Shown here one piece after another: positions 3,498 through 63,655 of a stretch of DNA of 64,000 nt. Below the pieces are notes generated by a model. That model searched no databases and was not told the origin of the DNA. It worked only from the letters and a program-made list of their open reading frames with translations. The translations under genes and the position numbers were made by a program. Position 1 is the stretch's first letter. Each line of letters starts with the position of its first letter. Source of the DNA: a virus; IMG/VR virus record IMGVR_UViG_3300035698_017437, positions 32,001 to 96,000 of that record; one strand, given 5' to 3'.

Positions 3498-3919
3498 AAG
3501 AAAAAATGAAAGTATCAGAATGGTATGAAAATTTCGCTCTTGAGGTAGAGCTTGAGGAAGGAAACTTTCTCAAAATCAAAGAAACCCTAACAAGAATTGG
3601 AATAACATCAAAAAAAGATAAATCTATTTTTCAATCTTGTCATATTCTTCAGAAAAAGGGAAAATTTTATATTGTACATTTTCTTGAATTATTCGCTCTT
3701 GATGGAAAAGAAACGTCTATATCAAAAGATGATATTATAAGACGAGATTCTATTATTATTCTTCTTCAAAAATGGGGATTATTGAAAGTTATTGATGAAC
3801 CAAAACTTTCTGAAAAGTCTGTATTTGTTAGAGTGATTCATTTCAATGATAAAGAAAATTGGAATTTAGTTCCAAAGTATTCTATTGGATCTGATAATAA
3901 ACCAAGAGGAGAGAAATAA
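3494..3919 (+). CDS. regA: Translational repressor RegA
   Basis: FLKIKETLTRIGI, QSCHILQKKGKFYIVHFLELFALDG, WNLVPKY. Confidence 0.95.
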   Translation: MKEKMKVSEWYENFALEVELEEGNFLKIKETLTRIGITSKKDKSIFQSCHILQKKGKFYIVHFLELFALDGKETSISKDDIIRRDSIIILLQKWGLLKVIDEPKLSEKSVFVRVIHFNDKENWNLVPKYSIGSDNKPRGEK

Positions 3920-4446
3920 TGAAATTGAAATGTTATAAAATAAATGAAGAAGCAAAACTTCCAACATATGGATCAACATATGCCGCTTGTTTTGATATTT
4001 CTGTTTGTTTACCTAAAGGTGGAATGCCAGTATTAGTTGATAAAAATAGAACAGCTTTAGTGAATGGTGAGGATTCTTCTAGATATATTGTTATTCATCC
4101 TGGAGAGGTTGCTCTAGTTCCTACAGGACTTATATTTGATATTCCAGAAGGATACCAAATGAAGATTTTACCTAGGTCAGGTCTAGCATGGAAAAATAGT
4201 ATTACAGTTTTGAATAGTCCAGGTACAATTGACGAAGATTATTATAATGAAACTTTCGTTCTTTTATATAATTCTTCAAGAAATTTACCTTTCAGAATTC
4301 AACATGGAGATAGAATTGCTCAAGGCGAAATAATGAAATGTAATATGATACAGTTTGAAGAGATATCTGAATTGGAATTGGGTATATCTAAAGAACTTCT
4401 AGAATCCTCTAGAGATGGTGGATTAGGTTCCACTGGAATGAAATAA
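3919..4446 (+). CDS. dut: Trimeric dUTPase
   Basis: Five motifs: AACFD, PRSGL, GTIDEDY, DRIAQ, RDGGLGSTG. Confidence 0.93.
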   Translation: MKLKCYKINEEAKLPTYGSTYAACFDISVCLPKGGMPVLVDKNRTALVNGEDSSRYIVIHPGEVALVPTGLIFDIPEGYQMKILPRSGLAWKNSITVLNSPGTIDEDYYNETFVLLYNSSRNLPFRIQHGDRIAQGEIMKCNMIQFEEISELELGISKELLESSRDGGLGSTGMK

Positions 4447-5200: not shown

Positions 5201-7801
5201 ATGTCCAATTTCACATTCGTGGGTAAAAGGGGGAATTCCTTCCTTGTCAGAGAAGTATCAAAGTCTTGTCGCAAAACTCATAAAATAAAAAGCTCAAATT
5301 TATCTCTATATTTGCCATCAAAAGAGGAATCTGAATATAAATCTTTTGATGGGAAAAGAAATCTGGAGAAGGTTGAGTTTGATTCTATTATAGATATGAG
5401 AGAGTTCATAGAGGATAATGGAGGAATTTCAAATTATCCTTTATATGGACAATCAAATCCGGTGGCTCAATGTATAGAAAATCGTTTCGGTAAACAAACA
5501 TTTGATATAAATGATTATCTTATATATGTTATTGATATTGAAACTGGTAGAGATCCAGAAAGGGGATATGCTCCTTCTATGGAACCTTTCAATGAAATAA
5601 CTCTAATCCAACTTCATAATAGCAAGACAAATACATATATTGTTTTTGGTACTGAACCTAATTTCACTCCAAATAAAATGGAAGGAAAGAATATTGTTTA
5701 TCGTTCTTGTGAAGATGAAAGAGAAATGTTGTTGAAATTTGTTCAATATTGGATGGGAGATTATCCGGATATCATTACAGGATGGAATATAGATTCATAT
5801 GATATGACCTATATATCTAATCGTTTGTTGGTCGTGTTTGGAGAAGAAAAAGGAACGAGTCTACGAAAGAATCTTAGTCCATTCAATAATGTTTGGATGA
5901 GAGAAGTGAAAAATTCATTTGGACAAAAAGAAGAGAAATGGACATGGACAGGAATAGTTTGTCTTGATTATCTGGCTCTATATAAAAAGTTTTCTCAAAA
6001 CAGTAGAGATTCATATAAGTTGGATAATATTGCCAATCTTGAATTGGGAACAAAGAAAATTGATTATTCTGAAGTTGAAAATCTTGAAGTTTTGAGATTG
6101 ACAAATTATCCCAAGTTTGTAGAATATGGTATCATTGATTTAGATCTTATTCTTGACTTACAGAAAAAATTGAAATTTCTCAATATTGCTATATCTCTTT
6201 CTTATAAAGCTGGTATCAATTTGGAAGATTCTATGGGAACAGTAGTTCTATGGGAAACAATGTTTCATAATAGATTATCAAGAGATAAAAAATTTATACC
6301 AATTGAACGACCCAAAAGACCTCATGTACCATATATTGGAGCATATGTACAAGATGTTGTCCCTGGTAGATATGATTGGATATTGAGTGTAGATCTTGCT
6401 TCATTGTATCCTCATTGTCAGATGCAATCCAATATCTCTCCTGATAAATTGATTGAAAATCCTCACCAAGAGTTATTGGATTTTCGGGATCAATTGAATA
6501 GTCAACCTATAAATGATCCTATTCATGGAAAAGTCTTAGGTTCTATAGATATGTTGTTACATAAAAAGATGGATACTTCTATATTACGCAAGTATCAGGT
6601 ATCTTTGACACCTAATGGACAATTCTATAAAAAAGATGATATTGGCTTTATTCCTAAAATTCTTAAGGAAGTTTATGCTGAAAGAAAAGCCATAAAGATA
6701 GAAATGATCAAAAAGAAACAAGAGTTGGAAGATACAACAGATCCTATTTCAAAACATAAATTGGATTTTGAAATATCTGCTCTTGATGCTGAACAGATGG
6801 CATTGAAAATTATGATTAATAGCGCATATGGAGCATTAGGAACAAAATATTTCAGATTTTATGATCCAAGAAATGCTGAAGCGATTACTTCATTGGGTAG
6901 AGTAGCAATCCAATGGGTGGCAAGGGATATCAATAATTATATAAAAAGTATTGTTCCTGATATTACTACCGATTCTGTTGTATATACAGATACAGATTCA
7001 AATCTCATTTGTCTTTCTCCTTTAGTGGAGAAATTCTTCAAGGGGAAATCAAATGCTTTCATTAGGGATGCTTTAGTTTCTTTTGGTAAAGAAAAACTTC
7101 AACCTATTATGGATGAAAGTTACAAGAAGTTAGCCATATATCTCAACTCTTATGAACAAGCAATGATCATGAAAATGGAAGTTGTTTCAGATAAAAATAT
7201 CTTCCTCTCCAAAAAGAGATATATAATGTCAAAGTTGTGGGATGAAGGAGTGACTTTCACTGAACCTAAAATGAAAATTATGGGTATAGATGCTATCAAA
7301 TCATCTACACCACCTCTTTGTAGGAAATATTTGACAGATATTATCAAAATCATTTTACATGGAGATGAGGAATCTGTCCAAGATTTTGTAAAAGATTTCA
7401 AAGAGAAATTTTATTCTGCTGATATTTCAGAAATATCATTCCCTAGGTCAGTAAATAACATGGAAAAATATGAAGATTCTATGTTGATATGTAAGAAAGG
7501 AACTCCTATTGCTGTTAGAGGAGCTCTTGTGTATAATCACTTCCTCAATAAACTGAATATCACAGAAATTGAAACAATTAAAAGTAGGGATAAAGTTAAG
7601 TTTATTTATTTGAAAATTCCTAATCATTATAAACATAATGTGATTTCATATGTAAATTCTATACCGAAAGAATTCCCTCATGTTCCTATTGATTATGATA
7701 TCCAATTTTATAAATCCTTTTTGAAACCTGTGGAGGGTATTCTAAATCCTATCGGATGGGAACATGAAAAGACAAATACATTAGAATCATTTTTCAGTTG
7801 A
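5201..7801 (+). CDS. gp43: Family B DNA polymerase
   Basis: Exo DIET, GWNIDSYD, SYKLD; polymerase DLASLYP, KIMINSAYG, YTDTDS; C-terminal clamp-binding TLESFF. Confidence 0.97.
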   Translation: MSNFTFVGKRGNSFLVREVSKSCRKTHKIKSSNLSLYLPSKEESEYKSFDGKRNLEKVEFDSIIDMREFIEDNGGISNYPLYGQSNPVAQCIENRFGKQTFDINDYLIYVIDIETGRDPERGYAPSMEPFNEITLIQLHNSKTNTYIVFGTEPNFTPNKMEGKNIVYRSCEDEREMLLKFVQYWMGDYPDIITGWNIDSYDMTYISNRLLVVFGEEKGTSLRKNLSPFNNVWMREVKNSFGQKEEKWTWTGIVCLDYLALYKKFSQNSRDSYKLDNIANLELGTKKIDYSEVENLEVLRLTNYPKFVEYGIIDLDLILDLQKKLKFLNIAISLSYKAGINLEDSMGTVVLWETMFHNRLSRDKKFIPIERPKRPHVPYIGAYVQDVVPGRYDWILSVDLASLYPHCQMQSNISPDKLIENPHQELLDFRDQLNSQPINDPIHGKVLGSIDMLLHKKMDTSILRKYQVSLTPNGQFYKKDDIGFIPKILKEVYAERKAIKIEMIKKKQELEDTTDPISKHKLDFEISALDAEQMALKIMINSAYGALGTKYFRFYDPRNAEAITSLGRVAIQWVARDINNYIKSIVPDITTDSVVYTDTDSNLICLSPLVEKFFKGKSNAFIRDALVSFGKEKLQPIMDESYKKLAIYLNSYEQAMIMKMEVVSDKNIFLSKKRYIMSKLWDEGVTFTEPKMKIMGIDAIKSSTPPLCRKYLTDIIKIILHGDEESVQDFVKDFKEKFYSADISEISFPRSVNNMEKYEDSMLICKKGTPIAVRGALVYNHFLNKLNITEIETIKSRDKVKFIYLKIPNHYKHNVISYVNSIPKEFPHVPIDYDIQFYKSFLKPVEGILNPIGWEHEKTNTLESFFS

Positions 7802-8157: not shown

Positions 8158-9228
8158 ATGAGTAATTTTTTGAAAGGAATGTTGAAATCTACAGGAAATA
8201 TATATGGCGGAATAGCATCTGAAGGATTAGTTGCTGGAGATATCACAGGATATCTTGATACAGGATCGTATCGTCTAAATGCTCTTGTCTCTGGATCTGT
8301 GTTCAAAGGTTGGCCACGAGGTAAAATTAGTATCCTTGGAGCACCTTCAGGAACAGGAAAAACCTTTTTACTTTTATCAGCTATCAAAGAGTTTCTAAAT
8401 GCTGAACCTGATGGAGCTGTTATTCTTTTTGAATCTGAATCAGCTCTTACAAAAGATATGCTAGTTCAAAGAGAAATTGATATTGATAGAGTTTTGATTT
8501 TACCTATTGTAACTGTGGAGGATTTGAAATTTCAAGCAGTTTCTATTATAGATAGATATCAAGCAACTCCAGAAGATGAAAGAATTCCTATTCTCCTTGG
8601 TCTTGATTCAATAGGTATGTTATCAACAGAAAAGGAAATTGGTGATGCTTCTGATGGAAAGGCTACTTTAGATATGACCCGAGCAAAAATGCTCAAAGCA
8701 GTATTTCGTATCCTTACTTTGAAATTGGGTCTATGTGATATTCCTTTCTTAGCCACCAATCATACTTACCAGGAACTTTCCCTCTATCCTAAAACCATCC
8801 AAAGTGGAGGAACAGGATTAGTTTATGCTGGAAGTACAATAATGGCGTTTTCTAAGGCCCAAGAAAAAGAAGGAAAGGAAAAAGTTGGGGCGATAATCAC
8901 AGCAACTCTTCAGAAAGGTCGTCTAACAAAAGAAAACTCTAAAGGTAAATGTCTTATCAATTTTGAAAATGGTTTAGATCGTTATTTTGATTTGATTGAA
9001 CCAGCCGTGGAATCAGGAATTTGGCAGAAAGATGGTAAACGTTTTATAACTACTGTAAATGAGAAACCTGTTTGGGCAAAGACTATAGCTAAAGATCCTG
9101 AAACATATTTTACCAAAGAAGTATTAGAAGCTATTGATAAAGTTTTAGCGAGACAATACCTTTATGGAATAACTAAAACAGAAGATGAAAATTTTGATGA
9201 ATTAGATGGAGAAGAAATTGACCACTGA
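8158..9228 (+). CDS. uvsX: RecA-like recombinase UvsX
   Basis: GAPSGTGKT, DSIGMLST, DMTRAK, NHTY, SGG. Confidence 0.93.
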   Translation: MSNFLKGMLKSTGNIYGGIASEGLVAGDITGYLDTGSYRLNALVSGSVFKGWPRGKISILGAPSGTGKTFLLLSAIKEFLNAEPDGAVILFESESALTKDMLVQREIDIDRVLILPIVTVEDLKFQAVSIIDRYQATPEDERIPILLGLDSIGMLSTEKEIGDASDGKATLDMTRAKMLKAVFRILTLKLGLCDIPFLATNHTYQELSLYPKTIQSGGTGLVYAGSTIMAFSKAQEKEGKEKVGAIITATLQKGRLTKENSKGKCLINFENGLDRYFDLIEPAVESGIWQKDGKRFITTVNEKPVWAKTIAKDPETYFTKEVLEAIDKVLARQYLYGITKTEDENFDELDGEEIDH

Positions 9229-9874
9229 TAATGGAAGAATAGAAACTATTATCATAAATCAACTCATATTCAATCGGGAATATTTCTCCAAATGTGTACC
9301 TTTTATCTCAGAAGAGTATTTTGACCTCAGACCAGAAAAGATAATTGTCAAACATATTGAATCATATTTTCAGAAATATGATTCAAGGATTCCTGATCCT
9401 TCAGTTCTGAAAGTGATGTTAGAACAAGATACCACTATTGGAGAGAAAGAAATTGGAGAAATAAATGAATATGTTGATAATCATTGTTCCTCTACAGGAA
9501 AATATGATTATGACTGGTTATTGATAGAAAGTGAATCCTTTTGCCAAGAGAAAGCAGTTTATAATGGTATAGTTGATTCTATCAATATTATTGAAGGAAG
9601 AGACAAGAATAGGAATAAAGAGGGTATTCCTGAAATATTGAGCGATGCCCTTGGTGTTAATTTTGATGTGAATATTGGACATGATTATTTTGGTCATGCT
9701 AAAGAAAGATTTGAATCTTATAATAATGCTGAAGCCAAGTTTCCATGTGGTCTAGAAATGATTGATAAAATCACTCATGGCGGGTTTGAGGAGAAGACGA
9801 TAAATCTATTAATTGGGGGCCCTGGCTGTGTTTTTTTCAAGACTAAAATACATGTCAGGATCACTGGGAAATAA
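9206..9874 (+). CDS. gp41: Replicative helicase gp41 N-extein + 15-aa N-intein
   Basis: FCQEKAVYNGI, IGHDYF, KITHGG; breaks in Walker A at GGPG|CVFFKTKIHVRITGK* (Cys1 at 9827). Confidence 0.9.
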   Translation: MEKKLTTDNGRIETIIINQLIFNREYFSKCVPFISEEYFDLRPEKIIVKHIESYFQKYDSRIPDPSVLKVMLEQDTTIGEKEIGEINEYVDNHCSSTGKYDYDWLLIESESFCQEKAVYNGIVDSINIIEGRDKNRNKEGIPEILSDALGVNFDVNIGHDYFGHAKERFESYNNAEAKFPCGLEMIDKITHGGFEEKTINLLIGGPGCVFFKTKIHVRITGK

Positions 9875-10112: not shown

Positions 10113-11282
10113 ATGGAAAAAGATATAGAAATACATGAAGTAAAGGAATTGTTGGAACATGGATATAAAGTTGAGGTCTCTTCTCCTAACGGTTTTGTGG
10201 AGATTACAGATTTTATAGAAAAGGGATATTTTGAGGTATATCATCTAAACACTTTCACTAAAAAAATAGGATGTAATATAAATCACAAATGGTTGACTTC
10301 TGAGGGATTCAAGAAAACTTCGGAATTACTAGATGGACCATTTCTTGTTGCTGGAGAGGATGAAAAGTTTATTCCTGCCCATATAACAAAATCTGATAAA
10401 ATAGAAAGGATTGTTGACGTTACAGTTGACCATCCTTCTCATACATATTTCACTGATGGAATCGCAAGCCACAATTCCTGTAAAACTTTGACAATGTGTT
10501 CTATGGCTACTCATTATCTCCAACAGGGATATGATGTCCTTTATATCACCATGGAGATGGCTGAAACCAAAATTGCCTCTAGAATTGATGCCAACTTGTT
10601 GGATGTTGATATCAATCGTGTTACTGGTTTATCTGAACAAGATTTCATGGGAAGAATAAATTTAGTCAAGACGAAAGGTATGGGACAATTAGTTATCAAA
10701 GAATATCCTACTGGCTCTGCTCATTGTGGTCATTTTGATTCATTGATGAAGGAATTGAAGATAAAGAAGAATTTTGTTCCAAAGATTATTTTTGTTGATT
10801 ATTTGGGTATTTGTTCGTCTAAATTAGTATCTCCTACTGTTGGTATGTATTCATATGTAAAGAGTATTGCTGAAGAGTTGAGATCGTTCATGGGTAAACA
10901 TAATGCTGTTGGATTTTCTGTTGCTCAATTCAATAGAGGTGGAACAAATAATACCGATGCTGATTATAGTAATATTGCGGAGAGTACAGGAATCCAACAG
11001 ACGGCAGATTTCATTGCTGGTTTAATCCTTACTGAGGAGCTAGAAGAAAAAAAGGTCATTTTGGTGAAACAAATCAAGAATAGATATGGAGATGTTGCCC
11101 ATTATAAAAAATTCTTGGTTGGTCTTGATAAAACAAGGATGAGAGTATACGACACTGAACAAGATTGGGATGAAGATAATGATTCTGTGGATGATGAAGA
11201 TGATATTCCAGAATTTGACAAGGCAACTAAAGGTAGAACCTTAGAAAAAGATGGACCTATGATGGGTGGAATAAGTTTCTAA
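10113..11282 (+). CDS. gp41: 121-aa C-intein + gp41 C-extein
   Basis: Block B (CNINHKW), block F (VDVTVD), block G GIASHN|S (Asn ends 10475), then CKT, YITMEM, IKEYPT, FVDYL, KNRYG. Confidence 0.92.
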   Translation: MEKDIEIHEVKELLEHGYKVEVSSPNGFVEITDFIEKGYFEVYHLNTFTKKIGCNINHKWLTSEGFKKTSELLDGPFLVAGEDEKFIPAHITKSDKIERIVDVTVDHPSHTYFTDGIASHNSCKTLTMCSMATHYLQQGYDVLYITMEMAETKIASRIDANLLDVDINRVTGLSEQDFMGRINLVKTKGMGQLVIKEYPTGSAHCGHFDSLMKELKIKKNFVPKIIFVDYLGICSSKLVSPTVGMYSYVKSIAEELRSFMGKHNAVGFSVAQFNRGGTNNTDADYSNIAESTGIQQTADFIAGLILTEELEEKKVILVKQIKNRYGDVAHYKKFLVGLDKTRMRVYDTEQDWDEDNDSVDDEDDIPEFDKATKGRTLEKDGPMMGGISF

Positions 11283-12014: not shown

Positions 12015-12385
12015 TTCAAAATGAGTAGATATAAAACGAAAAATAAGCATATAAGCCTTATTCGCCAAGGAGACACAATTTTACATAATGGAGAGGAAAG
12101 GACCGTATGTGATAGTGATATATTGATAAGTAGTTTTATGGGTATTTCTATATTTGGAGATTCCTATTCTATGGGAAGAAAGTTGGTAAAGGAAATAACA
12201 TACTTTTAAAAAGGATAATGATAATGAAAGACTTAGAAAAGAAAGTTAAACGATTGTTGATCAAATGGGGAAATTCTGAAGATTCTGTAAATAAAATGAT
12301 TTCTGATAATTATACTCAGGCTGTAAAAATGTATCCAGAGGCAAGAGCCGCAAAAATAGCTGAGGTTATTAGCTCCTTAAGATAA

Positions 12386-12534
12386 TTATTGATTTTCAGC
12401 AAGGTCAAGTACTGAAGTGAAGTCTATCCCATTAGAACTGATAATATAATGAGGATGAGATGAGACTATAACGGGTTATCAGATCTGTTGTCTTGAGTAA
12501 GTATCAACCCTTACACCTTGCTGAAAATCAATAA
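12386..12534 (+). repeat. Perfect 20-bp inverted repeat enclosing a structured ~110-nt core (candidate ncRNA or MITE)
   Basis: TTATTGATTTTCAGCAAGGT (12386-12405) / ACCTTGCTGAAAATCAATAA (12515-12534). Confidence 0.7.
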
Positions 12535-12548
12535 ATATAAAATAAGTG

Positions 12549-12616
12549 TTGACTTCTCATTCTATACATGATATAATAGTGTATACAGAATGAAAAACAC
12601 CTAATTCAATATGGAG
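12549..12616 (+). promoter_or_regulatory. Early promoter cassette driving purZ
   Basis: TTGACTTCTCATTCTATACATGATATAAT...CCTAATTCAATATGGAG. Confidence 0.85.
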
Positions 12617-12633: not shown

Positions 12634-13626
12634 ATGAAAATTGAAAAAGGAAAACTAAATATCATTATTGATGGTCAGTTTGGTAGCACCGGCAAGGGAG
12701 TTCTTGCGAGTTATATTGGATCAAAGAACTTTATTGATTTAGCTATAACAAACAGTAGTCCTAATGCTGGACATACATTTTATATAGATGGAAAGAAATG
12801 TGTTGTCAAGCATTTACCTGTTTCTGGAATAATCAATAAATGTAGCGTTATTTATCTTTGTGCTGGAGCTATTATTCATCCGAAAACTCTTTTAGATGAA
12901 ATCAAAAAATTCAATATAGATAAAGATAGAATTTTCATTCATCCTAGAGCCGCAATAATAACTCAAAATGATAAGATTTCGGAGGAGAATTCCAGAGGTA
13001 TAATGCAAGAAATCTCTTCAACCCAAAATGGAGTTGGTAGAGCATTATCTAGGAAAATAAATAGGACTGCTGATCTTGCTGAGGATATTCCAGAGTTATC
13101 CCATTTCATAAGAGATGTTGATGTTGAAGCACTTTTGGATGTAGGATGTAAAGCTCTAATGGAAGTCCCTCAGGGAATGGATTTGAGTATCAATTCAGGA
13201 TTATCCTATCCTTATTGTACTTCTAGAGAAATTTCTGTTAGTTCTTCATTATCTGATGTTGGAATACATCCTTCATATCTCGGTAAAGTATGTGTGAGTA
13301 TTAGAACCTTTCCCATTAGAGTTGGAAATCTTGAGGGAGGTAATTCGGGGCCATTTTATCCAGATTCAAAAGAAATTACTTGGGATAATCTTGGTGTAAA
13401 GCCAGAATATACAACAAATACAGATAGAATAAGAAGAGTCTCCACATTTAGTATGATACAATACAGAAAAATGTTGAAGAAATTCAAACCTGATTGTATA
13501 TTTCTAAATTTCTGTAATTATCTTCATCCAGAAGAATTGATGGATTTATTAGAACATCTTCCCGCAGTGACCCATTTAGGATTCGGTAGGGCCAAAGAAG
13601 ATATATTAGTTCGTAATGGAATTTGA
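12634..13626 (+). CDS. purZ: PurZ-like adenylosuccinate synthetase homologue (N6-succino-2-amino-dAMP synthase family)
   Basis: DGQFGSTGKG (Ser where PurA has catalytic Asp, GDEGKG), PNAGHT, YPYCTSR, PIRVGN, NFCNY instead of PurA TKLD. Confidence 0.8.
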   Translation: MKIEKGKLNIIIDGQFGSTGKGVLASYIGSKNFIDLAITNSSPNAGHTFYIDGKKCVVKHLPVSGIINKCSVIYLCAGAIIHPKTLLDEIKKFNIDKDRIFIHPRAAIITQNDKISEENSRGIMQEISSTQNGVGRALSRKINRTADLAEDIPELSHFIRDVDVEALLDVGCKALMEVPQGMDLSINSGLSYPYCTSREISVSSSLSDVGIHPSYLGKVCVSIRTFPIRVGNLEGGNSGPFYPDSKEITWDNLGVKPEYTTNTDRIRRVSTFSMIQYRKMLKKFKPDCIFLNFCNYLHPEELMDLLEHLPAVTHLGFGRAKEDILVRNGI

Positions 13627-14341: not shown

Positions 14342-15292
14342 ATGAGTAACAATAGAAAGATCCAAGGAATTTTTCATTTTGATTGCGACGGGGCAGTTTC
14401 GGAGATAATTATGAAACGGTTCATTCCCAACATTTATTCTTATAGTTGTGGATATTCTAAGATAGATGCTTGGATCAAGAAATTGAAAAAGAATGATAAA
14501 GTTATTGTTGCTGATATTTCTCTTTCTCCAGATCAAGTGGAATCTATTAGAGAAAAAACGGATCAATGGTTCATTATTGATCATCATCAAGATACAGAGG
14601 AAATTCAAAATAATTATCCAGATCATGTTCTTTATGCTTCTGATAAATGTGGTGCTGAACTTTGTGTTGATTTTTGTGAAGAGCGATTTCCAGAAACTTT
14701 TGATGAATTGTATCGGAAAAACGGAAAAATGAGAGTTCTAGTTATGTTGACTGGTATTTATGATCTATGGAAAACAGATCATGAATTGTTTCCGAAAGCT
14801 TACAATCTCAATTATCTTTATTGGGATTTAGTCCATTGGAATTTTGTAAAACGTTTTGCTAATGGTTGGGATGGTTACTCTATATCTGAAGTGGAAACAA
14901 TCAAGAAAAAGCAGGAAGAAAAGGAAATTCTTTGGAATGAGGCAGAATTTGTTGATATTGATGATAAAACCATCGTTTGTTTGGGTAGTCCTGAAATCAC
15001 AAATGATCTAACCTTGAGACTTCCAGAAAAGGAATTATTTTTTGCTATTGTCCACCAACATGATGAATTATCTCTTAGAGTCCGGTATTCTGGAGAGACA
15101 GGTAATGTAGGAGAGGTTCTAGATGAACTAGAACACATGGAAACAGGAATAGGCGCTTATACTCATAGAGCTGGAGGCCATCCTAAGGCTGGAGGAGCAT
15201 CATTCTATCCTGAAGCTGATTTAGATTATATTTTTGAGGTCTGTGAGTATATTTTCGAGTATATGAAAAATTCCTCTGATGTTCCATTTTAG
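14342..15292 (+). CDS. DHH-family phosphoesterase
   Basis: HFDCDG, VADIS, IDHH, YDLW, GGHPKAGG. Confidence 0.88.
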   Translation: MSNNRKIQGIFHFDCDGAVSEIIMKRFIPNIYSYSCGYSKIDAWIKKLKKNDKVIVADISLSPDQVESIREKTDQWFIIDHHQDTEEIQNNYPDHVLYASDKCGAELCVDFCEERFPETFDELYRKNGKMRVLVMLTGIYDLWKTDHELFPKAYNLNYLYWDLVHWNFVKRFANGWDGYSISEVETIKKKQEEKEILWNEAEFVDIDDKTIVCLGSPEITNDLTLRLPEKELFFAIVHQHDELSLRVRYSGETGNVGEVLDELEHMETGIGAYTHRAGGHPKAGGASFYPEADLDYIFEVCEYIFEYMKNSSDVPF

Positions 15293-21024: not shown

Positions 21025-21333
21025 ATGAGTGAAGAATTTACTGGACTAGGAGAATTTGTAGTCCAGAAAACAGGAAATAGGCAAAGAAAAACGGATATTC
21101 ATTGGCAAGATATGCCTGAATTTGTTCAAGAAAAGGAAGAACCTTATGCTAAGATAATTGTCCGATTTGAAACAAAAGAAGACCTAGACGATTTCTCCTC
21201 TAAAATTGGTCAAGATGTTCCTAAAGGCAATCCTTCTATTTGGCATCCAAAACTTCAAAGAGGGAAAAATTCAAATAAACGTTATGTTGATGATACTCCT
21301 TTTATTGGTGAAACTTTAACAGAGGATGATTGA
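21025..21333 (+). CDS. Small partner of the TAGT/GREB1-like glycosyltransferase
   Basis: WQDMPEFVQE..IIVRFETKEDLDDF...SIWHP; overlaps start of next gene. Confidence 0.55.
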   Translation: MSEEFTGLGEFVVQKTGNRQRKTDIHWQDMPEFVQEKEEPYAKIIVRFETKEDLDDFSSKIGQDVPKGNPSIWHPKLQRGKNSNKRYVDDTPFIGETLTEDD

Positions 21334-22211
21334 TGATATTAGATCCTAATCAGCCCAGATATCCCATTTACGTTGTTTCGAAAGGTAGATGGGAATCAAG
21401 ACTAACAGGCAAAGCTTTAGAAAAATTGAATCTATTTTACTATATGGTAATTGAAGAACAAGAATATGATCAATATGCCGCAGTAATGGATGAAAATAAG
21501 TTACTTGTCCTTGATAAACAATATCAAGTTGATTATGAAACTCTTGACGATTTAGGAGACACAAAAAGTAAAGGGCCTGGACCAGCAAGAAATTTCTGTT
21601 GGAATCATTCTTTAGAGAATGGAGATAAACGCCATTTTGTAATGGATGATAATTTCTCAGCGTTTTATCGCTTGAATAGAAACGTCAGAGTTGAGGTTAC
21701 TTCAGGAAATATATTCAGAGCCGCTGAAGATTTTGTGGATAGATATACTAATGTTCCAATCTCAGGACTCAATTATAGATTCTTCTGTATTCCTACAGAA
21801 TATTATCCTCCTTATGTAACAAACACTAGGATTTATTCTTGTTTGCTTATTGAAAATGATATTCCTTATCGTTGGAGAGGAAGATATAATGAAGATACGA
21901 TAATTTGTCTTGATGTATTGAAAGATGGATTATGTACAATTCAATTCAACGCATTTCTTTGCGGCAAAGTTGGCACCCAGACCCTGAAAGGTGGTAATAC
22001 AGAGGCTTTTTATGATAAGGAAGGCACATTAGCAAAATCTCAAATGTTAGAAGATGTTCATCCCGATGTTGCTAGAGTTGCCTGGAAATTCCGGCGTTGG
22101 CACCATGAGGTCAATTATCGTCCATTCAAGAAGAATATCTTGATAAAAAAAGAAGATATTATTGTTCCTAAAGGGATTAATAATTATAATATGAAACTTA
22201 CGGAGATATAA
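21330..22211 (+). CDS. TET-associated/GREB1-like glycosyltransferase (DNA base hypermodification)
   Basis: YPIYVVSKGR, GPARN, VMDDN, RIYSCLLI, WRGRYNED, KGGNT, RWHH. Confidence 0.8.
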   Translation: MMILDPNQPRYPIYVVSKGRWESRLTGKALEKLNLFYYMVIEEQEYDQYAAVMDENKLLVLDKQYQVDYETLDDLGDTKSKGPGPARNFCWNHSLENGDKRHFVMDDNFSAFYRLNRNVRVEVTSGNIFRAAEDFVDRYTNVPISGLNYRFFCIPTEYYPPYVTNTRIYSCLLIENDIPYRWRGRYNEDTIICLDVLKDGLCTIQFNAFLCGKVGTQTLKGGNTEAFYDKEGTLAKSQMLEDVHPDVARVAWKFRRWHHEVNYRPFKKNILIKKEDIIVPKGINNYNMKLTEI

Positions 22212-28743: not shown

Positions 28744-29649
28744 ATGCGTTCAGAAATAATCGTCCTTTCAGGTGCCAATCATCTAAATATAAAATCAACC
28801 TGTGAATTTGAATCAGGACTTTTTGCTTGTGGTGAAAGTTCTTTTCGTCTTTTATGTTCGGTAAGATATAAACCAGTAACAATTATCCAATCATTTCCAA
28901 ACACAAACAATAATCTAATGGAGTTGATCTTGGCTATTGATTCAGCAAAAAGGTCAGGAGCATCAAATATAAATGTTATCTTGATGATATTTCCTTATTC
29001 AAGACAAGATAAGAAACATAAGTCTGGAGTTCCAATCTCCGCAAAGATTGTGTGTGATATGTTGCGAGAAGCCCAAGCAGATCGTGTTATTACTTTTGAT
29101 CTTCATAATGAGGCTATAGAGGGTTTCATGCACCCATCGGTAGTATTTGATCATATAGAATTGACGTCATTCTTAGCATACAATCTCAAAGAGAATATAA
29201 ACGACATTTCAGATTGGACTTTTGTATCTCCTGATGCTGGAGCTATCAAGAGGACGAAAAAATTGATGGATGCTTGTGGAGCATCTAAAATGGCAGTTGT
29301 AGATAAGACGAGAACAACTCCTGGTGTAGTTGATGAAGTGAATCTTATAGGATCAGTAGAATACCAGAATTGTATTGTTGTGGATGATATGGTCTCAAGC
29401 GGAGGAACATTGCTTGCTGTAGAAAAGGAATTGATACATAAAGGCGCTTTATCAGTAACATTATGTTGCTCTCATGGAATATTTACATCAGGTGAGGAAA
29501 TGTTTAGGGAGAGTAATATTTTTGTAACTAATACTCTCCCTCTGAGTGGGCTGGTAGACTTTTTTGATATATCTCCCTTGATAAAAAAATTGGTTATATC
29601 TATAGATAGTGGAACAGATTTAAGGAGTTTTTTCAGATATTCTTCCTAA
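28744..29649 (+). CDS. prs: Ribose-phosphate pyrophosphokinase (or Adps-like)
   Basis: FPYSRQDK, DLH, SPDAGA, VDDMVSSGGT, HGIF. Confidence 0.9.
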   Translation: MRSEIIVLSGANHLNIKSTCEFESGLFACGESSFRLLCSVRYKPVTIIQSFPNTNNNLMELILAIDSAKRSGASNINVILMIFPYSRQDKKHKSGVPISAKIVCDMLREAQADRVITFDLHNEAIEGFMHPSVVFDHIELTSFLAYNLKENINDISDWTFVSPDAGAIKRTKKLMDACGASKMAVVDKTRTTPGVVDEVNLIGSVEYQNCIVVDDMVSSGGTLLAVEKELIHKGALSVTLCCSHGIFTSGEEMFRESNIFVTNTLPLSGLVDFFDISPLIKKLVISIDSGTDLRSFFRYSS

Positions 29650-29868: not shown

Positions 29869-31236
29869 ATGTTTGAAGTTCCAAATAAAGAAAGAGGAAT
29901 CATTGAATGTCTTGAATCTAACGGATATGAGACATATTTGGTGGGAGGAGCTGTAAGGGATTATTTCCTAGGACAGACTCCTCATGATTTTGATATTTCC
30001 ACCAATGCTCGTCCTGAGCAGATTATTGAAATTTTCAAAAAAGAATCCTTTATCACAAATATTGATCTTGTTGGAGAATCTTTTGGAGTTGTTCTTATTG
30101 ATGGAATTGAAGTAGCGACATTCAGAGGGGATCATTATTCAGGTACGGGTTCTCAAAAAGATGTTGAAATCACTTATTGTGATACAATTGAGGAAGACCT
30201 TTCCAGAAGAGATTTCACTGTCAACTCAATGGCTATTGATCTGTCTGGTGATTTGATTGATCCTTTCGGAGGCCAAAGAGATTGTGAAGATATGATTCTT
30301 CGTTTTGTTGGTTCTGCTGATAAGAGAATCAAAGAAGATTCAAACCGAATTCTTCGGGCCTTTCGGTTTTCAGCTAAAGGTTTTAAACTTCAGCTTGATC
30401 TAAAGATCGCAATTGTAAGGAATCTTTCTTCTGTAAAGAATATTGCTCCTGAAAGAATTCGTCTTGAACTCTTAAAAACGATGGAATATGAGAAACCTTC
30501 CATCTTCTTTGAAAATGCTTATAAACTTGGAGTTCTTGAGTATATATTTCCTGAATTATGTCTTTCATGGGAACATGATGGAGGAAATCATCATCCTGAA
30601 TCTGTTTGGGAACATGTTATGATTGCTGGAGATTCGGCTTCTCCTAAGTTTCCATTACAACGCCTTGCCGCTTATCTTCATGACATTGCCAAACCTGAAT
30701 GTTTCAAAAGAAATGATGATAGGACCTTTTCCCGTCACGATGTTGTGGGATATAAGATTCTCCAGAAAAATCTTAAATCACTGAAATTCTCTAATGAAGA
30801 AATTGAAAAAGTTTCTGGTTTGTCTAGAATTCATATGAGACATGGGTTTTATGGTGATGATAAAGGAAGTCATAAAGCTTTTCGTAAAACTCTGAGGGCT
30901 CTTTCTGAATTCGGTGTTTCTTGGAGAGAATTTATCCGATTGAGAATTGCTGATACTAAAGGAAACCTTGGAGTTGAAGATCTTACTTTTACTCAATTGA
31001 GAACCATTATCACTCCTTTTGTAAATGGATTATATGCTGATACTCCATTTACTGCTCATGCTCTGGCATTATCTGGTGGAGATATCAAGGATCTTTTTCA
31101 TTTGGAAGGCAAAGAAATTGGAGAGCTTCAGAAACATTTACTCCATTTGGTTGTTGAGGATGGAGTGGAGAATGCTAGGAACGTTTTGATGGAAGTATCT
31201 TTGGATTTCATCAAGGAATCTAAAGTTCGAGAATAA
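29869..31236 (+). CDS. cca: CCA tRNA nucleotidyltransferase with HD domain
   Basis: LVGGAVRD, DFD, DLSRRDFTVN, ED..RILRAFRF, ERI..EL, LHDIAKP. Confidence 0.93.
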   Translation: MFEVPNKERGIIECLESNGYETYLVGGAVRDYFLGQTPHDFDISTNARPEQIIEIFKKESFITNIDLVGESFGVVLIDGIEVATFRGDHYSGTGSQKDVEITYCDTIEEDLSRRDFTVNSMAIDLSGDLIDPFGGQRDCEDMILRFVGSADKRIKEDSNRILRAFRFSAKGFKLQLDLKIAIVRNLSSVKNIAPERIRLELLKTMEYEKPSIFFENAYKLGVLEYIFPELCLSWEHDGGNHHPESVWEHVMIAGDSASPKFPLQRLAAYLHDIAKPECFKRNDDRTFSRHDVVGYKILQKNLKSLKFSNEEIEKVSGLSRIHMRHGFYGDDKGSHKAFRKTLRALSEFGVSWREFIRLRIADTKGNLGVEDLTFTQLRTIITPFVNGLYADTPFTAHALALSGGDIKDLFHLEGKEIGELQKHLLHLVVEDGVENARNVLMEVSLDFIKESKVRE

Positions 31237-34787: not shown

Positions 34788-36186
34788 CCACGTTATACCC
34801 ACGTAAGACTGTAATATTATTATAAGAATAATCCCTAAAAACTTTTGGAGAACAATTATGAAGAAAGAAAATGAAGTATCATCCTCACAAATCTATGGCA
34901 ACATCTGTCAAAAATGTAAATCCCACTCCAATAACCCATCTTTCTGTAAAAGGAAAGAATCTTTCGTCGGCCGTAAACAGGATGCTTGTGACTTATTCAA
35001 GGTGAAAAAGTGAATATAATAGTATGTCCAACCCATGAGGTAAAGATATTCTGTGGAACAAAACCAGGATATGAAAATACATCTTTTACTCAACAATCCA
35101 TTATTTCCCTAGAACTTCAAGACCTTTGTGAAAAATATTGTGATGAAATTGGATTAGGATTGACATTTACCAACACAAAGTTTATTTACACTGATGGAAA
35201 GGAAGAGGGTGTAATTGTTGGATTGATCAATTATCCTAGATTTCCTAAAGCTCCTCTTGAAATTGAAGAAATTGCTTTTGATTTAGGTGAAAAAATGATG
35301 ATCCTTGCTAATCAAGAAAGGATTTCTGTCCTTACTCCAACCACAACTTATATGTTGGAGATATAATGGAAAAAATAATTATGTATTGTCCTTCATGCAA
35401 TTTTATGGAATTAGTTGTAAGATCTATATATGATCCTGAAGATGCTACCATTTTAAAAATGAACTGTGATAGTTGCGAATCTTGTAAAGCAGATGAAGCT
35501 AAAAAGGGCCAATATTATGGTCAGAAAGGAGAAATAAATGGATAAGATGTATTGTTATATTCGGACATCCAATAGATCTTTTGATTTTAGGTTATCAAAA
35601 GATTTAGATATCTTGGGTAAATTTGTTATGAGTGATAAGGTTGAATTGGAAGAAGAAGTAAGTTCTTGGCACGTTCTTGAGTATACTACATGTTTCAACT
35701 CTATATTATTCACTTTTGATAAATTTGGTTGTACTAAACCTGAATTGTTCACTTCTAATAATGTGAAAGGAGATAGGATATTTGAAAAATATTCTCAAGG
35801 AAAAGAAAATAAAGTTATAACTTCAATAGAATCATCAATTTTAGGAGAATAAAATGAAAATGGGCCAACAGTGGGAACGAGTTACCGGAAAAGATCTCCA
35901 CGATAAAACAGATCAAACAAATAAAAATGCCTCAACTCGGGTTTCAGGTAAGTTTATTTCAGCTTGTGAGAAAGCTGGGATTCCAGCAACTCGGAGGCAA
36001 GCTTCTAAATGGAACATGAAAAAGGGGCTTGCTTTTTCGGGATGACAATTTTCTGGTATTTTTATTATAGCCAAACTATCATTGTATTTTATTCTTTGGG
36101 TAGTTTGGCTATAATAACAGTAATAGCTAAAATATTGTATGAAATGTATGTACAGTTTAAGGGCATGTTCTGTAAAGGAGAGAAAA

Positions 36187-37476: not shown

Positions 37477-37703
37477 AAATTTCTTTTGTACAGTTTGTTT
37501 AGAAGAGAAAGAGGAAATTATTTCCTCTAAACATCCAAATATATGTATGAATTGTTATAGTGAGGAGTTATCTCTAAAAAGAGTTTGTTATCTTATTGGG
37601 GTAAAATCTATTCCTATTGAAGACAGATTATCAAGAGTAGAAGCCTGGATATATGATCACAAACATAATGTTGATCCAATGAATATTAAATATGGGTGAG
37701 AAA

Positions 37704-40699: not shown

Positions 40700-40897
40700 T
40701 TAGAAATCAAATTTCATAAAGAAATACGACAAGGAGATAAATTGAGGTATCTGTTTGTTTTAGATAGGATTAAGAACCATTTAATCATTTGGGAATCGGA
40801 ATACAATAAGGACAGAAACAAATGTTTAGAAGATTTAATAATAACAATAAAGGAAATGAGAAATGAGATTGAGCCAAAATCCAGTAATAGAGAGTAA
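40700..40897 (+). pseudogene. C-terminal remnant of a Vsr-like homing endonuclease
   Basis: Start-less frame EIRQGDKLRYLFVLDRIKNHLIIWESEYNKDRNKCLEDLI in the split-nrdJ gap. Confidence 0.6.
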
Positions 40898-56561: not shown

Positions 56562-57224
56562 ATGAAAATGAAAAAGAAACTTGTTTATATTTCTAGTAGA
56601 TATCTCAACGGAAATCAGGCTGAAAATGTAGCTATCCAATTAGATATAGCACATAAGATTATGGATCTAGGTGGTATTCCAATTGTTCCTCATTTACATC
56701 ATTTCCTTCATATCCATAAACAACGTCCTTATGAAGAATGGACGGAAATGATGTTGAGATATATAGATACTGCTGATTGTGTATTTCATGTTCCATGTAT
56801 ATCCTCAAGAGTTGATAAAGAGATTTCTTATGCTAGAAAAAAGGATATTATGGTTTTTCATGATATCCTGTACCTTGAGCAATTTCTTCAGAGTCGTACA
56901 GGAAGAACGACTAAAATTCTTGAAGATGTCTTGGATATTGCTGATACAACGAAAGATGGTTTTATGTGTTTTTGTTGTAATACTATTGGTCATAGGAATG
57001 TGTTAATCTCTATGGCCAAGAAAATTGCTAGGTCAAAAGGTATCAATTTTCTATTAAAGGAAAATATTCTGAGAATAGGATCAACTATCATAGTTTTCAC
57101 TGTTGAATTGCGGACCTTAGATTCCTTCATTCAGCATGCTATGAGAATACCTAAATTTGGAGTTTGGAAGGATCATTGTAACATGTATGATTGGTTACCT
57201 CAGAATGGATGGATAGATAAATAA
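56562..57224 (+). CDS. Nucleoside-deoxyribosyltransferase-like (DUF4406/DUF1937-type) domain protein
   Basis: VYISSRY..PIVPH..W..ADCV..S.RVDKEI..A. Confidence 0.5.
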   Translation: MKMKKKLVYISSRYLNGNQAENVAIQLDIAHKIMDLGGIPIVPHLHHFLHIHKQRPYEEWTEMMLRYIDTADCVFHVPCISSRVDKEISYARKKDIMVFHDILYLEQFLQSRTGRTTKILEDVLDIADTTKDGFMCFCCNTIGHRNVLISMAKKIARSKGINFLLKENILRIGSTIIVFTVELRTLDSFIQHAMRIPKFGVWKDHCNMYDWLPQNGWIDK

Positions 57225-63136: not shown

Positions 63137-63655
63137 ATGAATAGTAATAAAAGGGTATATATTGTGAATGGTCGTCCTAGAGCAGGAAAAGGAACTCTAA
63201 TCCAAATCATGAAGGATAATTATCCTGTTCATCATCTTTCAACCGTGGATACAGTGAAAGTTCTAGCTAGACAAATGGGTTGGAATGGGACTAAAACTCC
63301 TGAAAATCGCCAAATGCTTTCTGACCTAAAAGATTTCTATTCAAAGAATTTTGATGGACCTTTTAGAGAGATGACTGAAGCTACCAACTCCCATGATTAT
63401 TGTGTCTTTGAGATTAGGGAACCAAAAGAAATTGAAAGACTCCAAAAATGGTGTGAACTTAATTGGATTATTTGTGATACTATTTTGGTACAATCCGACA
63501 AACATGATGCCACCTCTACTTGCCATTCAGATGTAAATGTTGATGGTTTTGATTATCGTTATATAGTAAACAATTACAATTCATTAGATGATTATGAACA
63601 TAACTGTAAAGAATTCTTAAAATCTATTATGGATGAAGATGAAGAAGATGAATAA
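63137..63655 (+). CDS. dNMP-kinase-like P-loop protein
   Basis: NGRPRAGKGT, GWNG.K...RQMLSDLK, IREPKEI. Confidence 0.75.
   Translation: MNSNKRVYIVNGRPRAGKGTLIQIMKDNYPVHHLSTVDTVKVLARQMGWNGTKTPENRQMLSDLKDFYSKNFDGPFREMTEATNSHDYCVFEIREPKEIERLQKWCELNWIICDTILVQSDKHDATSTCHSDVNVDGFDYRYIVNNYNSLDDYEHNCKEFLKSIMDEDEEDE

What the first reader, a model, noticed from the sequence alone, without database searches (positions are those of the whole stretch)
12634..13626. PurZ-signature enzyme in a T4-like PolB phage with no visible DatZ/MazZ and a deviant substrate loop
Seen: GSTGKG and NFCNY, which separate PurZ from PurA (GDEGKG, TKLD), under an early promoter. Known: PurZ makes the dZMP precursor in 2-aminoadenine genomes, mostly sipho/podophages with family A polymerase or primase-polymerase plus DatZ and MazZ/DutZ. 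Here the loop reads TTNTDRIRR; as I recall PurZ has TTVTKLPRR, so this keeps the PurA-type Arg and has Asn for Val. The same window has two N6-adenine-type MTases and DNA glycosyltransferases. Inference: a Z-genome T4-like lineage, partial substitution, or a different modified purine pathway.
Basis: partly seen in the sequence, partly recalled or inferred. Interest (0 to 1): 0.85.

Follow-up and report, generated by a model that had tools for sequence, protein, structure and literature searches.

The report
Solitary PurZ in T4-like phage
An uncultured salt-lake phage of the T4 type carries an intact, early-expressed gene for PurZ, the enzyme that small phages use to replace adenine with 2-aminoadenine (Z) in DNA. 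It has none of the known helper enzymes, so Z in its DNA is plausible but unproven.

Summary
Window 12634-13626(+) is a 330-aa adenylosuccinate-synthetase homologue with GSTGKG, TTNTDRIRR and NFCNY, 57 nt behind one of 24 copies of a conserved early-type promoter. The genome is T4-like (gp23, gp43 PolB, gp45/44, RegA, UvsX).

The protein keeps almost every substrate-contacting residue of the S-2L and phiVC8 PurZ structures. It nests inside the PurZ crown, apart from PurZ0 and PurA, and its model best matches PurZ structures. Two formal criteria fail: it scores 215 bits against the 300-bit NCBIfam PurZ cutoff, and the "strictly conserved" TTVT loop tip reads TTNT.

The loop is not peculiar to this gene. 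Asn is the commonest state in its clade, and the "PurA-type Arg" also occurs in canonical Z-cluster phages.

No DatZ, MazZ/MazG, DUF550, DUF5664, PolA, PurB or Gmk was found in the 142-kb record (78% complete). All 11 large-phage relatives tested also lack DatZ, and their PurZs form one sublineage. That sublineage also holds resident chromosomal genes of Bdellovibrionales-type bacteria; the Micavibrio gene falls just outside it. A dUTPase-family gene and an NDT-like gene are weak candidates for dATP removal.

Verdict: genuine PurZ-type enzyme; extent of Z substitution unknown. The scan has noted orphan PurZ genes in large phages on other DNA.

The parts
12549..12577 (+). Early-type sigma-70 promoter (TTGACT, 17 nt, TATAAT, with TG) driving the PurZ gene
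   Evidence: 11 of 12 consensus plus an extended -10. It is one of 24 near-identical copies in the window, all on the + strand, against 0.14 expected by chance.
12634..13626 (+). PurZ-type succino-amino-deoxyadenylate synthase homologue, 330 aa
   Evidence: Pfam PF00709 and PHROG 1211. Best PDB sequence hits are phiVC8 and S-2L PurZ. Pocket residues are conserved. It lies inside the PurZ crown in three trees. The AF2 model (pLDDT 90) best matches 7ODX and 6TNH. NCBIfam PurZ scores 215.5 bits, below the 300 cutoff.
5201..7801 (+). gp43-type family-B DNA polymerase, the only replicative polymerase found, which would have to copy any Z-containing DNA
   Evidence: Pfam PF00136 and PF03104. Best matches are T4-like cyanophage gp43 at 39% identity. 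No PolA in the genome.
3919..4446 (+). dUTPase-family protein between regA and gene 43. A weak candidate for a DutZ-like dATP/dGTP pyrophosphatase, but probably an ordinary dUTPase
   Evidence: PF00692. NCBIfam dUTPase 118 bits against a cutoff of 103. Atypical motif III GTIDEDYYNE and a ~20-aa insertion. Across PurZ-bearing records, Dut is found only in DatZ-negative ones.
56562..57224 (+). NDT-like (nucleoside 2-deoxyribosyltransferase / N-hydrolase fold) protein. A weak candidate for removing dA nucleotides or nucleosides
   Evidence: PHROG 355 E 1.2e-9 and Pfam DUF7768. No detectable similarity to Wayne DmtZ. Shared with only 1 of 42 other PurZ records.
63137..63655 (+). Weak dNMP-kinase-like P-loop protein, possibly phosphorylating dZMP (speculative)
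   Evidence: PHROG 139 E 3.8e-6 and Pfam ADK E 1e-3, N-terminal P-loop region only.

Best explanation
The gene encodes an active PurZ-type enzyme. [quoted passage not shown] The host adenylosuccinate lyase and host kinases (perhaps helped by the phage's dNMP-kinase-like protein) then turn this into dZTP. The phage's gp43-type family-B polymerase inserts Z opposite T.

A T4-like phage would be expected to obtain dGMP from breakdown of host DNA, so a MazZ-type dGTPase would be dispensable. With no DatZ, dATP is not obviously removed. I therefore expect partial A-to-Z substitution, unless the dUTPase-family and NDT-like proteins, or PurZ's own use of dATP, clear the dATP pool.

Shown here: the enzyme's family, residues, phylogeny, fold and promoter, and the absence of the helper genes. 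Inferred: the substrates, the downstream host steps, polymerase acceptance of dZTP, and any Z in virion DNA.
For: Motifs and residues. Ser18 replaces the PurA catalytic Asp. N292, F293, N295 and Y296 replace the GTP-binding T-K-x-D. All dGMP-pocket residues listed for S-2L PurZ are kept (F16, G17, S18, N44, A45, H47, T130, R144, Q180, Y194, C195, T196, R229). So are V230, which clashes with a ribose 2'-OH, and the PurZ-specific insertion after it (residue roles from PMC8342488, and bioRxiv 10.1101/2025.10.22.683976).

Similarity. PDB sequence hits are phiVC8 PurZ E 1e-53 and S-2L PurZ 1e-45, against P. horikoshii PurA 7e-36, PurZ0 1e-27 and bacterial PurA 1e-19 or weaker. PHROG 1211 gives E 3e-57.

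Trees. The window clade (support 99) lies inside the PurZ crown (95-98), with PurZ0 and canonical PurA outside. It is nested among PurZs of small phages that carry PolA and DatZ.

Fold. The model has pLDDT 90, and its top hits are 7ODX and 6TNH/6FKO at TM 0.87.

Expression and conservation. The gene has a dedicated early promoter. It is intact and matches the contigs of four salt-lake samples exactly where they cover it. More than 100 relatives at 54-64% identity keep the motifs.

Literature. S-2L PurZ can use dATP as donor, and most polymerases accept dZTP (PMC8342488).
Against: NCBIfam PurZ NF038379 scores 215.5 bits, below its curated cutoff of 300. The archaeal-type PurA model is close behind at 191 bits.

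The aspartate-loop tip, described as strictly conserved TTVT, reads TTNT. Lys is replaced by Asp264, and the adenine-stacking Pro by Arg319.

No DatZ, MazZ/MazG, DUF550, DUF5664 or PolA was found. In E. coli, incomplete Z-clusters gave lower substitution (PMC8342488).

Close relatives are resident chromosomal genes in Micavibrio, Bdellovibrionales and UBA6503 MAGs. No cellular Z-DNA is known, so the signature alone does not prove a Z genome.

Two methyltransferase-like genes are present (only one typed, Eco57I N6-adenine family). Any adenine methyltransferase would have to act on Z. The record is 78% complete, so 22% of the genome is unseen.
Confidence: 0.55

Rival explanations
1. The enzyme has PurZ chemistry (dGMP to dSMP), but its job is to manage nucleotide pools or to counter a host defence, not to rewrite the genome. 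It might drain dGMP/dGTP and (d)ATP, or make Z-nucleotides as small molecules. Virion DNA would hold little or no Z.
For: All 11 large-phage records lack DatZ, four of them at least 91% complete. The gene stands alone in every large-phage context read. Related genes sit in bacterial chromosomes beside MazG or Ham1 and alongside a canonical PurA and PurB. In the metaGPA study, 3 of 17 synthetase homologues on unmodified contigs did not cluster with PurA.
Against: dZTP, once made, is accepted by most polymerases (PMC8342488), so some incorporation is hard to avoid. No precedent exists for a PurZ with a non-genomic role. The early promoter among replication genes fits DNA precursor synthesis.
Confidence: 0.2
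2. The enzyme works as an ATP-dependent PurA-like synthetase on IMP or dIMP. It would boost AMP or dAMP supply for a 32% G+C genome, and no Z is made.
For: The archaeal-type PurA model scores nearly as well as the PurZ model, 191 against 215 bits. The fold matches P. horikoshii PurA with the same TM of 0.87. The UBA6503 homologue lies between cmk and a Ham1/RdgB ITPase in a genome where no canonical PurA was found. The loop tip and Arg265 (equivalent to E. coli R303) depart from S-2L and phiVC8. The genome is AT-rich.
Against: The catalytic Asp of PurA is a Ser here. In the NAR 2026 survey Asp13 was conserved in 99% of the sequences grouping with E. coli PurA, and all phage PurZ-group sequences had Ser (PMC12884076). 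V230 and the insertion that disfavour a 2'-OH are kept. The gene nests among PurZs of phages with full Z clusters. Micavibrio and Bdellovibrionales keep a canonical PurA besides this gene. Arg at the R303 position also occurs in the Z-cluster phages OH, Bm1 and ZP6.
Confidence: 0.15
3. The altered aspartate loop (TTNT, Asp264) changes the amino-acid donor or the product, giving a purine modification other than Z.
For: Position 262 aligns with E. coli Thr300, in the loop that contacts aspartate (PMC8342488). The window also holds other DNA-modification genes: TAGT, a ThyX-like protein and a radical-SAM protein.
Against: Position 262 alternates among N, V, R and C in proteins about 60% identical. 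That looks like a tolerant site, not a specificity switch. Thr260, Thr261, Thr263, Arg267 and Arg268 are invariant. No partner enzyme for an alternative product was identified.
Confidence: 0.05

Closest known systems
PurZ of Vibrio phage phiVC8 (PDB 6FM1, 6FKO, 6TNH) and cyanophage S-2L (PDB 7ODX)
   Same: Same fold (TM 0.87), 34-37% identity, Ser in GSTGKG, the NFxNY ATP motif, the dGMP pocket, the Val that excludes 2'-OH, and the PurZ insertion. Same phylogenetic crown.
   Different: The loop tip is TTNT rather than TTVT. Asp264 and Arg319 differ. The protein is below the NCBIfam PurZ cutoff. It stands alone in a ~142+ kb T4-like genome with PolB, instead of beside DatZ, MazZ and PolA or PrimPol in a 40-45 kb genome.
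PurZ of Ochrobactrum phage vB_OspP_OH, the nearest cultured relative (41.7% identity)
   Same: GSTGKG and Arg at the E. coli R303 position (TTVTKRVRR). It falls on the same side of the PurZ crown as the window clade.
   Different: OH has the full cluster of PolA, PurZ, NTP pyrophosphohydrolase and dATP triphosphohydrolase in 41 kb.
PurZ0 + DutZ + DmtZ pathway of actinophages Wayne and Ghobes (Poubanne et al., NAR 2026, PMC12884076)
   Same: A Z pathway without DatZ or MazZ, in which a dUTPase-family enzyme and an NDT-family enzyme handle dATP and dAMP. This genome also has one dUTPase-family gene and one NDT-like gene.
   Different: The synthetase here is PurZ, not PurZ0. The Dut and NDT-like genes are 8 kb and 43 kb away, are not fused, and show no specific similarity to DutZ or DmtZ. 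The NDT-like gene is not a consistent partner.
Solitary PurZ genes of large and jumbo phages in metagenomes
   Same: The same PurZ sublineage, 44-64% identity, no DatZ, and the gene isolated among unrelated genes.
   Different: Only this genome, and the 8.7-kb fragment L028, show T4-type head genes. Three of the others (G001, G003, G010) use PolA.
Archaeal-type short adenylosuccinate synthetase (Pyrococcus horikoshii PurA, PDB 5K7X and 2D7U; NCBIfam NF003295)
   Same: Same short ~330-340 aa architecture and fold (TM 0.87). The HMM score of 191 bits is close to the PurZ score.
   Different: P. horikoshii has GDEGKG and GTVTGRRRR and lacks the insertion after the conserved Val. The sequence alignment stops before the nucleotide-base motif.

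Membership tests
PurZ (succino-amino-deoxyadenylate synthase) | Ser replaces the catalytic Asp13 of PurA (GSTGKG instead of GDEGKG) | tested here: met
   Ser18. E. coli PurA has GDEGKG. PMC12884076 reports Ser in 100% of phage PurZ-group sequences.
PurZ (succino-amino-deoxyadenylate synthase) | ATP/dATP-type base pocket (N-F-x-N/Q-Y) in place of the GTP motif T-K-x-D | tested here: met
   N292, F293, N295 and Y296 align with S-2L N305, F306, Q308, Y309 and with E. coli T331, K332, D334.
PurZ (succino-amino-deoxyadenylate synthase) | dGMP pocket residues, the Val that clashes with a ribose 2'-OH, and the PurZ-specific insertion after it | tested here: met
   All listed residues are conserved except Ser128 for Gly130 (the clade has Ala or Ser; OH has Ala). 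V230 and the insertion are present (roles from PMC8342488).
PurZ (succino-amino-deoxyadenylate synthase) | [quoted passage not shown] | tested here: not met
   It reads T-T-N-T. In the clade the third position is N 58, V 31, R 20, C 9 of 120.
PurZ (succino-amino-deoxyadenylate synthase) | Phylogenetic placement with characterised PurZ, apart from PurZ0 and PurA | tested here: met
   The PurZ crown has SH-aLRT 98, 97 and 95 in three trees, with PurZ0 and canonical PurA outside. Caveats: quick searches only, and no archaeal PurA sequence was in the trees.
PurZ (succino-amino-deoxyadenylate synthase) | Score over the curated cutoff of NCBIfam NF038379 | tested here: not met
   215.5 bits against a cutoff of 300. 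phiVC8 scores 397 and Wayne 367. The clade members P0034 (238) and P0119 (218) are also below the cutoff.
PurZ (succino-amino-deoxyadenylate synthase) | Catalysis of dGMP + Asp + ATP to dSMP | not testable with these tools
   Needs an enzyme assay.
Canonical Z-cluster system (PurZ + DatZ + MazZ, usually with DpoZ) | DatZ HD-domain dATP triphosphohydrolase | tested here: not met
   tblastn with phiVC8 and S-2L DatZ found nothing better than E 2.4. The only HD proteins are a CCA-adding enzyme and a SpoT-type hydrolase. The genome search DatZ query found 25 other records but not G000. The record is 78% complete.
Canonical Z-cluster system (PurZ + DatZ + MazZ, usually with DpoZ) | MazZ, DUF550 or DUF5664 (d)GTP pyrophosphohydrolase | tested here: not met
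   No match for PF03819, PF04447, PF18909 or S-2L MazZ. The PF04447 search over the 43 records rang nowhere, controls included, so that call is uninformative.
Canonical Z-cluster system (PurZ + DatZ + MazZ, usually with DpoZ) | Family-A DpoZ polymerase (or PrimPol) | tested here: not met
   No PF00476 match. The genome has a gp43-type PolB instead.
Canonical Z-cluster system (PurZ + DatZ + MazZ, usually with DpoZ) | 2-aminoadenine in virion DNA | not testable with these tools
   The public runs that hold this DNA are kept only as contigs.
PurZ0-type system (PurZ0 + DutZ + DmtZ) | Synthetase of the PurZ0 clade | tested here: not met
   The PurZ0 clade (support 99-100) excludes the window protein.
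PurZ0-type system (PurZ0 + DutZ + DmtZ) | dUTPase-family enzyme specialised for dATP and dGTP, and an NDT-family dAMP hydrolase/transferase | tested here: inconclusive
   A Dut-family gene (3919-4446) and an NDT-like gene (56562-57224) exist. Their specificity cannot be read from sequence, and there is no similarity to Wayne DmtZ.
Canonical PurA (adenylosuccinate synthetase) | Catalytic Asp13, the GTP motif, and a TIGR00184 score over its cutoff | tested here: not met
   Ser18 and NFCNY are present instead. TIGR00184 scores 126 bits against a cutoff of 395.
T4-like phages | gp23 major capsid protein; gp43 PolB; gp45 clamp, gp44 loader, RegA, UvsX and gp41 in T4-like order | tested here: met
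   gp23 E 1e-131. PF00136, PF09116, PF21328, PF01818, RecA and DnaB_C hits. gp43 is 39% identical to that of T4-like cyanophages.

The most novel reading that the evidence does not exclude
A DatZ-less 'large-genome' sublineage of PurZ gives T4-like and jumbo phages Z-containing DNA that is copied by non-DpoZ replisomes (here a T4-type family-B polymerase). dATP would be cleared by unrelated enzymes such as the dUTPase-family and NDT-like proteins. The same sublineage has been domesticated in predatory bacteria beside NTP pyrophosphatases, which would imply Z-nucleotide metabolism in cells.
Probability: 0.2. Interest if true: 0.85.

Novelty: new variant of a known kind. Interest (0 to 1): 0.6.

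Why it matters
Z-DNA is known from small sipho- and podophages with a tight PurZ-DatZ-MazZ cluster and usually a dedicated family-A polymerase. The two recent surveys I read (NAR 2026 and a 2025 bioRxiv preprint) do not mention family-B or T4-like hosts of PurZ.

If this phage puts Z in its DNA, three things follow. The trait extends to the best-studied class of large lytic phages. A family-B replisome copes with Z. dATP exclusion is either unnecessary or solved in a new way.

If it does not, then PurZ chemistry has a second, non-genomic role. The chromosomal copies beside MazG and Ham1 in predatory bacteria would support that. Either outcome can be tested with one enzyme assay and one Z-aware sequencing or LC-MS experiment on salt-lake viromes.

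Tried and rejected
- **Near-identical phage record:** megablast of 12 kb found none.
- **DatZ, MazZ and DpoZ:** tblastn against the genome found nothing.
- **DUF550, DUF5664, MazG and PF05014 NDT:** nothing in the genome. The PF04447 search of the 43 records rang nowhere, controls included, so it is uninformative.
- **The two HD proteins as DatZ:** rejected. One is a CCA-adding enzyme, the other a SpoT/RelA-type hydrolase.
- **DHH phosphoesterase next to PurZ (14342-15292) as a partner:** rejected, because it is not found near PurZ in any of about 85 related loci.
- **NDT-like protein versus Wayne DmtZ:** no similarity, and no consistent co-occurrence.
- **Phage PurB or guanylate kinase:** none found.
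- **Sequencing runs:** no RNA holder was listed. The DNA runs are Logan contigs of salt-lake metagenomes, so nothing can be learned about base modification or expression.
- **Archaeal PurA in the trees:** I could not obtain a sequence by reference. Only PDB pairwise, HMM and fold comparisons were possible.
- **Fold comparison:** it does not separate PurZ from archaeal short PurA, since both give TM 0.87.

Full report
**1. The observation.**
The window has an ORF at 12634-13626(+) of 330 aa. It contains GSTGKG (residues 17-22), TTNTDRIRR (260-268) and FLNFCNY (290-296). Pfam assigns it to adenylosuccinate synthetase (PF00709, E 6e-28). PHROGs assigns it to family 1211, the PurZ family (E 3e-57).

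A TTGACT-17-TATAAT promoter with an extended -10 TG lies at 12549-12577, 57 nt upstream. It belongs to a set of 24 near-identical 29-nt elements in the window, all on the + strand, against 0.14 expected by chance. So the gene has its own copy of the phage's repeated sigma-70-type promoter, which I read as its early promoter.

**2. The genome.**
The window is bases 32001-96000 of a 141,960-bp IMG/VR record that CheckV puts at 78% complete. It is a T4-type phage:
- gp45 clamp, gp44 loader, RegA, a dUTPase-family gene, gp43-type PolB, UvsX and a split gp41 helicase lie in T4-like order.
- A gp23 major capsid gene scores E 1e-131.
- The polymerase is only ~39% identical to its best matches, T4-like cyanophages, and no near DNA relative exists among 50,697 phage records. 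This is a deeply divergent lineage.

The runs that hold the DNA are salt-lake metagenomes.

**3. Is it PurZ?**
*Sequence similarity.* The best solved relatives are phiVC8 PurZ (E 1e-53) and S-2L PurZ (1e-45). They are ahead of Pyrococcus PurA (7e-36), PurZ0 (1e-27) and bacterial PurA.

*Residue map.* I mapped the residues that the S-2L structure paper names (PMC8342488) and those from the metaGPA study onto the protein.
- The whole dGMP pocket is conserved. So are the Ser that replaces Asp13, the Val that clashes with a 2'-OH, the PurZ-specific insertion, and the ATP-adenine pocket (N292, F293, N295, Y296).
- The exceptions are Ser128 for Gly, Asn262 for Val in the aspartate-loop tip, Asp264 for Lys, and Arg319 for the stacking Pro.

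*Trees.* In trees rooted on canonical PurA, PurZ0 separates first (support 99-100). The window protein lies inside the PurZ crown (95-98) with every characterised PurZ.

*Fold.* An AlphaFold model (pLDDT 90.2, pTM 0.90) best matches 7ODX and 6TNH/6FKO (TM 0.87).

*Two formal tests fail.*
- The NCBIfam PurZ model scores 215.5 bits against a cutoff of 300, with the archaeal-type PurA model close at 191.
- The TTVT tip is not kept.

The fold also matches Pyrococcus PurA with the same TM. I therefore call it a PurZ-type enzyme of a divergent sublineage, not a textbook member.

**4. The 'deviant loop'.**
Other PurZs from full Z clusters read TTVTKRVRR (OH, Bm1), TTVTKRARR (ZP6) and TTVTKKVRR (phiVC8). 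The Arg that aligns with E. coli R303 is therefore not a PurA relic.

Among 120 homologues at 54-64% identity, that position is Arg in 118. The tip's third position is N 58, V 31, R 20, C 9. Such alternation among close relatives suggests a tolerant position.

**5. The helpers are absent, and not only here.**
In the 142-kb record I found no DatZ, MazZ, MazG, DUF550, DUF5664, PF05014 NDT, PolA, PurB or guanylate kinase. The two HD proteins are a CCA-adding enzyme and a SpoT-type hydrolase.

I then searched 42 IMG/VR records that carry a PurZ relative:
- Of 32 small records (30-91 kb), 31 have PolA and 25 have DatZ.
- Of 11 large-phage records, counting the window's own genome (67-287 kb, four at least 91% complete), none has DatZ and 3 have PolA. 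Fisher p is 5.5e-6 and 9.5e-6, not corrected for relatedness.

On a tree, all 11 large-phage PurZs fall in one group (support 93), nested among PurZs of small PolA+DatZ phages. So there is a distinct DatZ-less sublineage that has spread among unrelated large phages. Only this genome and the 8.7-kb fragment L028 show T4-type head genes. In every large-phage context that could be read, the gene is isolated.

**6. Candidates for dATP control.**
*dUTPase family.* dUTPase-family genes occur in 7 of 11 large records and in 0 of 25 DatZ-positive records. Large phages often carry dUTPases anyway. The window's copy passes the NCBIfam dUTPase cutoff, with an atypical motif III and an insertion.

*NDT-like protein.* One lies at 56562-57224 (PHROG 355, DUF7768). 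This is the enzyme class that two recent papers link to dA removal in Z phages (PMC12884076; bioRxiv preprint). It shows no similarity to Wayne DmtZ and recurs in only one other record.

These are leads, not findings. PurZ itself can burn dATP (PMC8342488).

**7. An unexpected complication.**
A scan of 185,579 species genomes found GSTGKG relatives at 44-48% identity on megabase contigs of Micavibrio, Bdellovibrionales and UBA6503 MAGs. They are not in prophages:
- In Micavibrio the gene lies beside hflX and an inositol monophosphatase, 3 bp downstream of a MazG.
- In UBA6503 it lies between cmk and a Ham1/RdgB ITPase, followed by rpsA.

Micavibrio and Bdellovibrionales also have a canonical PurA and PurB. 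UBA6503 showed neither. In the trees these genes are the nearest outgroups of, or lie inside, the large-phage sublineage. Their pairing with an NTP pyrophosphatase echoes MazZ-PurZ. What they do in a cell is unknown, and they weaken any automatic step from 'PurZ signature' to 'Z genome'.

**8. Reading.**
Most likely (0.55) the enzyme makes dSMP from dGMP, and the phage ends up with some Z in its DNA, copied by a family-B polymerase. With no recognised dATPase, I expect partial substitution unless another enzyme does that job.

The rivals are:
- PurZ chemistry without genomic Z (0.2).
- A PurA-like role on IMP or dIMP (0.15).
- A changed donor or product (0.05).

**9. Novelty.**
The two most recent surveys I could read do not mention family-B or T4-like carriers. 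The nearest cultured PurZ is 41.7% identical. Other reports of this scan have noted orphan PurZ genes in large phages on other DNA, and my IMG/VR analysis agrees with them. I class this as a new variant of a known kind.

**Limits.**
- The trees are quick searches with SH-aLRT support only.
- No archaeal PurA sequence could be placed in them.
- The genome is incomplete.
- The look-up of encoding contigs closed.

Noticed in passing
L139:9166-11171 (Micavibrio MAG, G043); L141:9033-13440 (UBA6503 MAG, G045); L140 (Bdellovibrionales MAG, G044): GSTGKG PurZ-type genes are resident chromosomal genes in predatory-type bacteria. Each lies beside an NTP pyrophosphatase: a MazG 3 bp upstream in Micavibrio, and the order cmk, PurZ-like, Ham1/RdgB, rpsA in UBA6503. 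Two of the three genomes also have a canonical PurA and PurB. Their function in a cell is unknown.
   Followed up: partly
L112-L123 (Hydrogenophaga, Mycobacterium, Sphingomonas, Microbacterium, Dehalococcoidia and other genomes): There is a separate bacterial paralogue family with GSEGKG and LTF[AV]DY, in long open frames of 530-750 aa. It groups with phage PurZ0 (support 88). The two genomes tested also have a canonical PurA.
   Followed up: partly
window 12382-12405 and 12515-12538: A 24-nt inverted repeat, 96% complementary with 109 nt between the arms, lies directly upstream of the PurZ promoter.
   Followed up: partly
window, 24 sites (e.g. 11558, 11946, 12549, 18782, 24245, 62894): A highly conserved 29-nt early-type promoter, TTGACTTCTCATTCTATACATGnTATAAT, is repeated 24 times, all on the + strand. 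A TTGACAAGTGAT variant is found at five sites (7798, 45648, 47511, 49498, 49639).
   Followed up: partly
window 21330-22211, 36139-37077, 37692-38702: A TET-associated glycosyltransferase (PF20691, E 1e-39), a ThyX-like protein with a ~185-aa N-terminal extension, and a radical-SAM-like protein (PHROG 24834). These hint at a pyrimidine hypermodification in the same phage. No TET/JBP search was run.
   Followed up: no
window 9206-9874 and 10113-11282; 38980-40683 and 40863-41519: The gp41-type helicase and the class II ribonucleotide reductase each appear as two separate ORFs. Earlier notes of this scan read both as split inteins.
   Followed up: no
L014:8983-10326 (Flavobacterium phage MaF61, 168 kb): A cultured large phage carries a 447-aa PurZ-crown homologue (GSSGKG, TTLTKLPRR) with a very long insertion after the conserved Val. 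It lies among head and terminase genes. This could be a cultivable system for testing Z in a large phage.
   Followed up: partly
G000:C1:103209-103814 (L005:1336-1941), outside the window: A 201-aa stand-alone SpoT/RelA-type HD hydrolase (TIGR00691, E 2.5e-30). It is a likely alarmone hydrolase, not a DatZ.
   Followed up: partly
window 28744-29649, 29869-31236, 48163-49254, 59661-60146: The phage also encodes a PRPP synthetase, a CCA-adding enzyme, an RNA ligase and a cytidylyltransferase-like protein.
   Followed up: no
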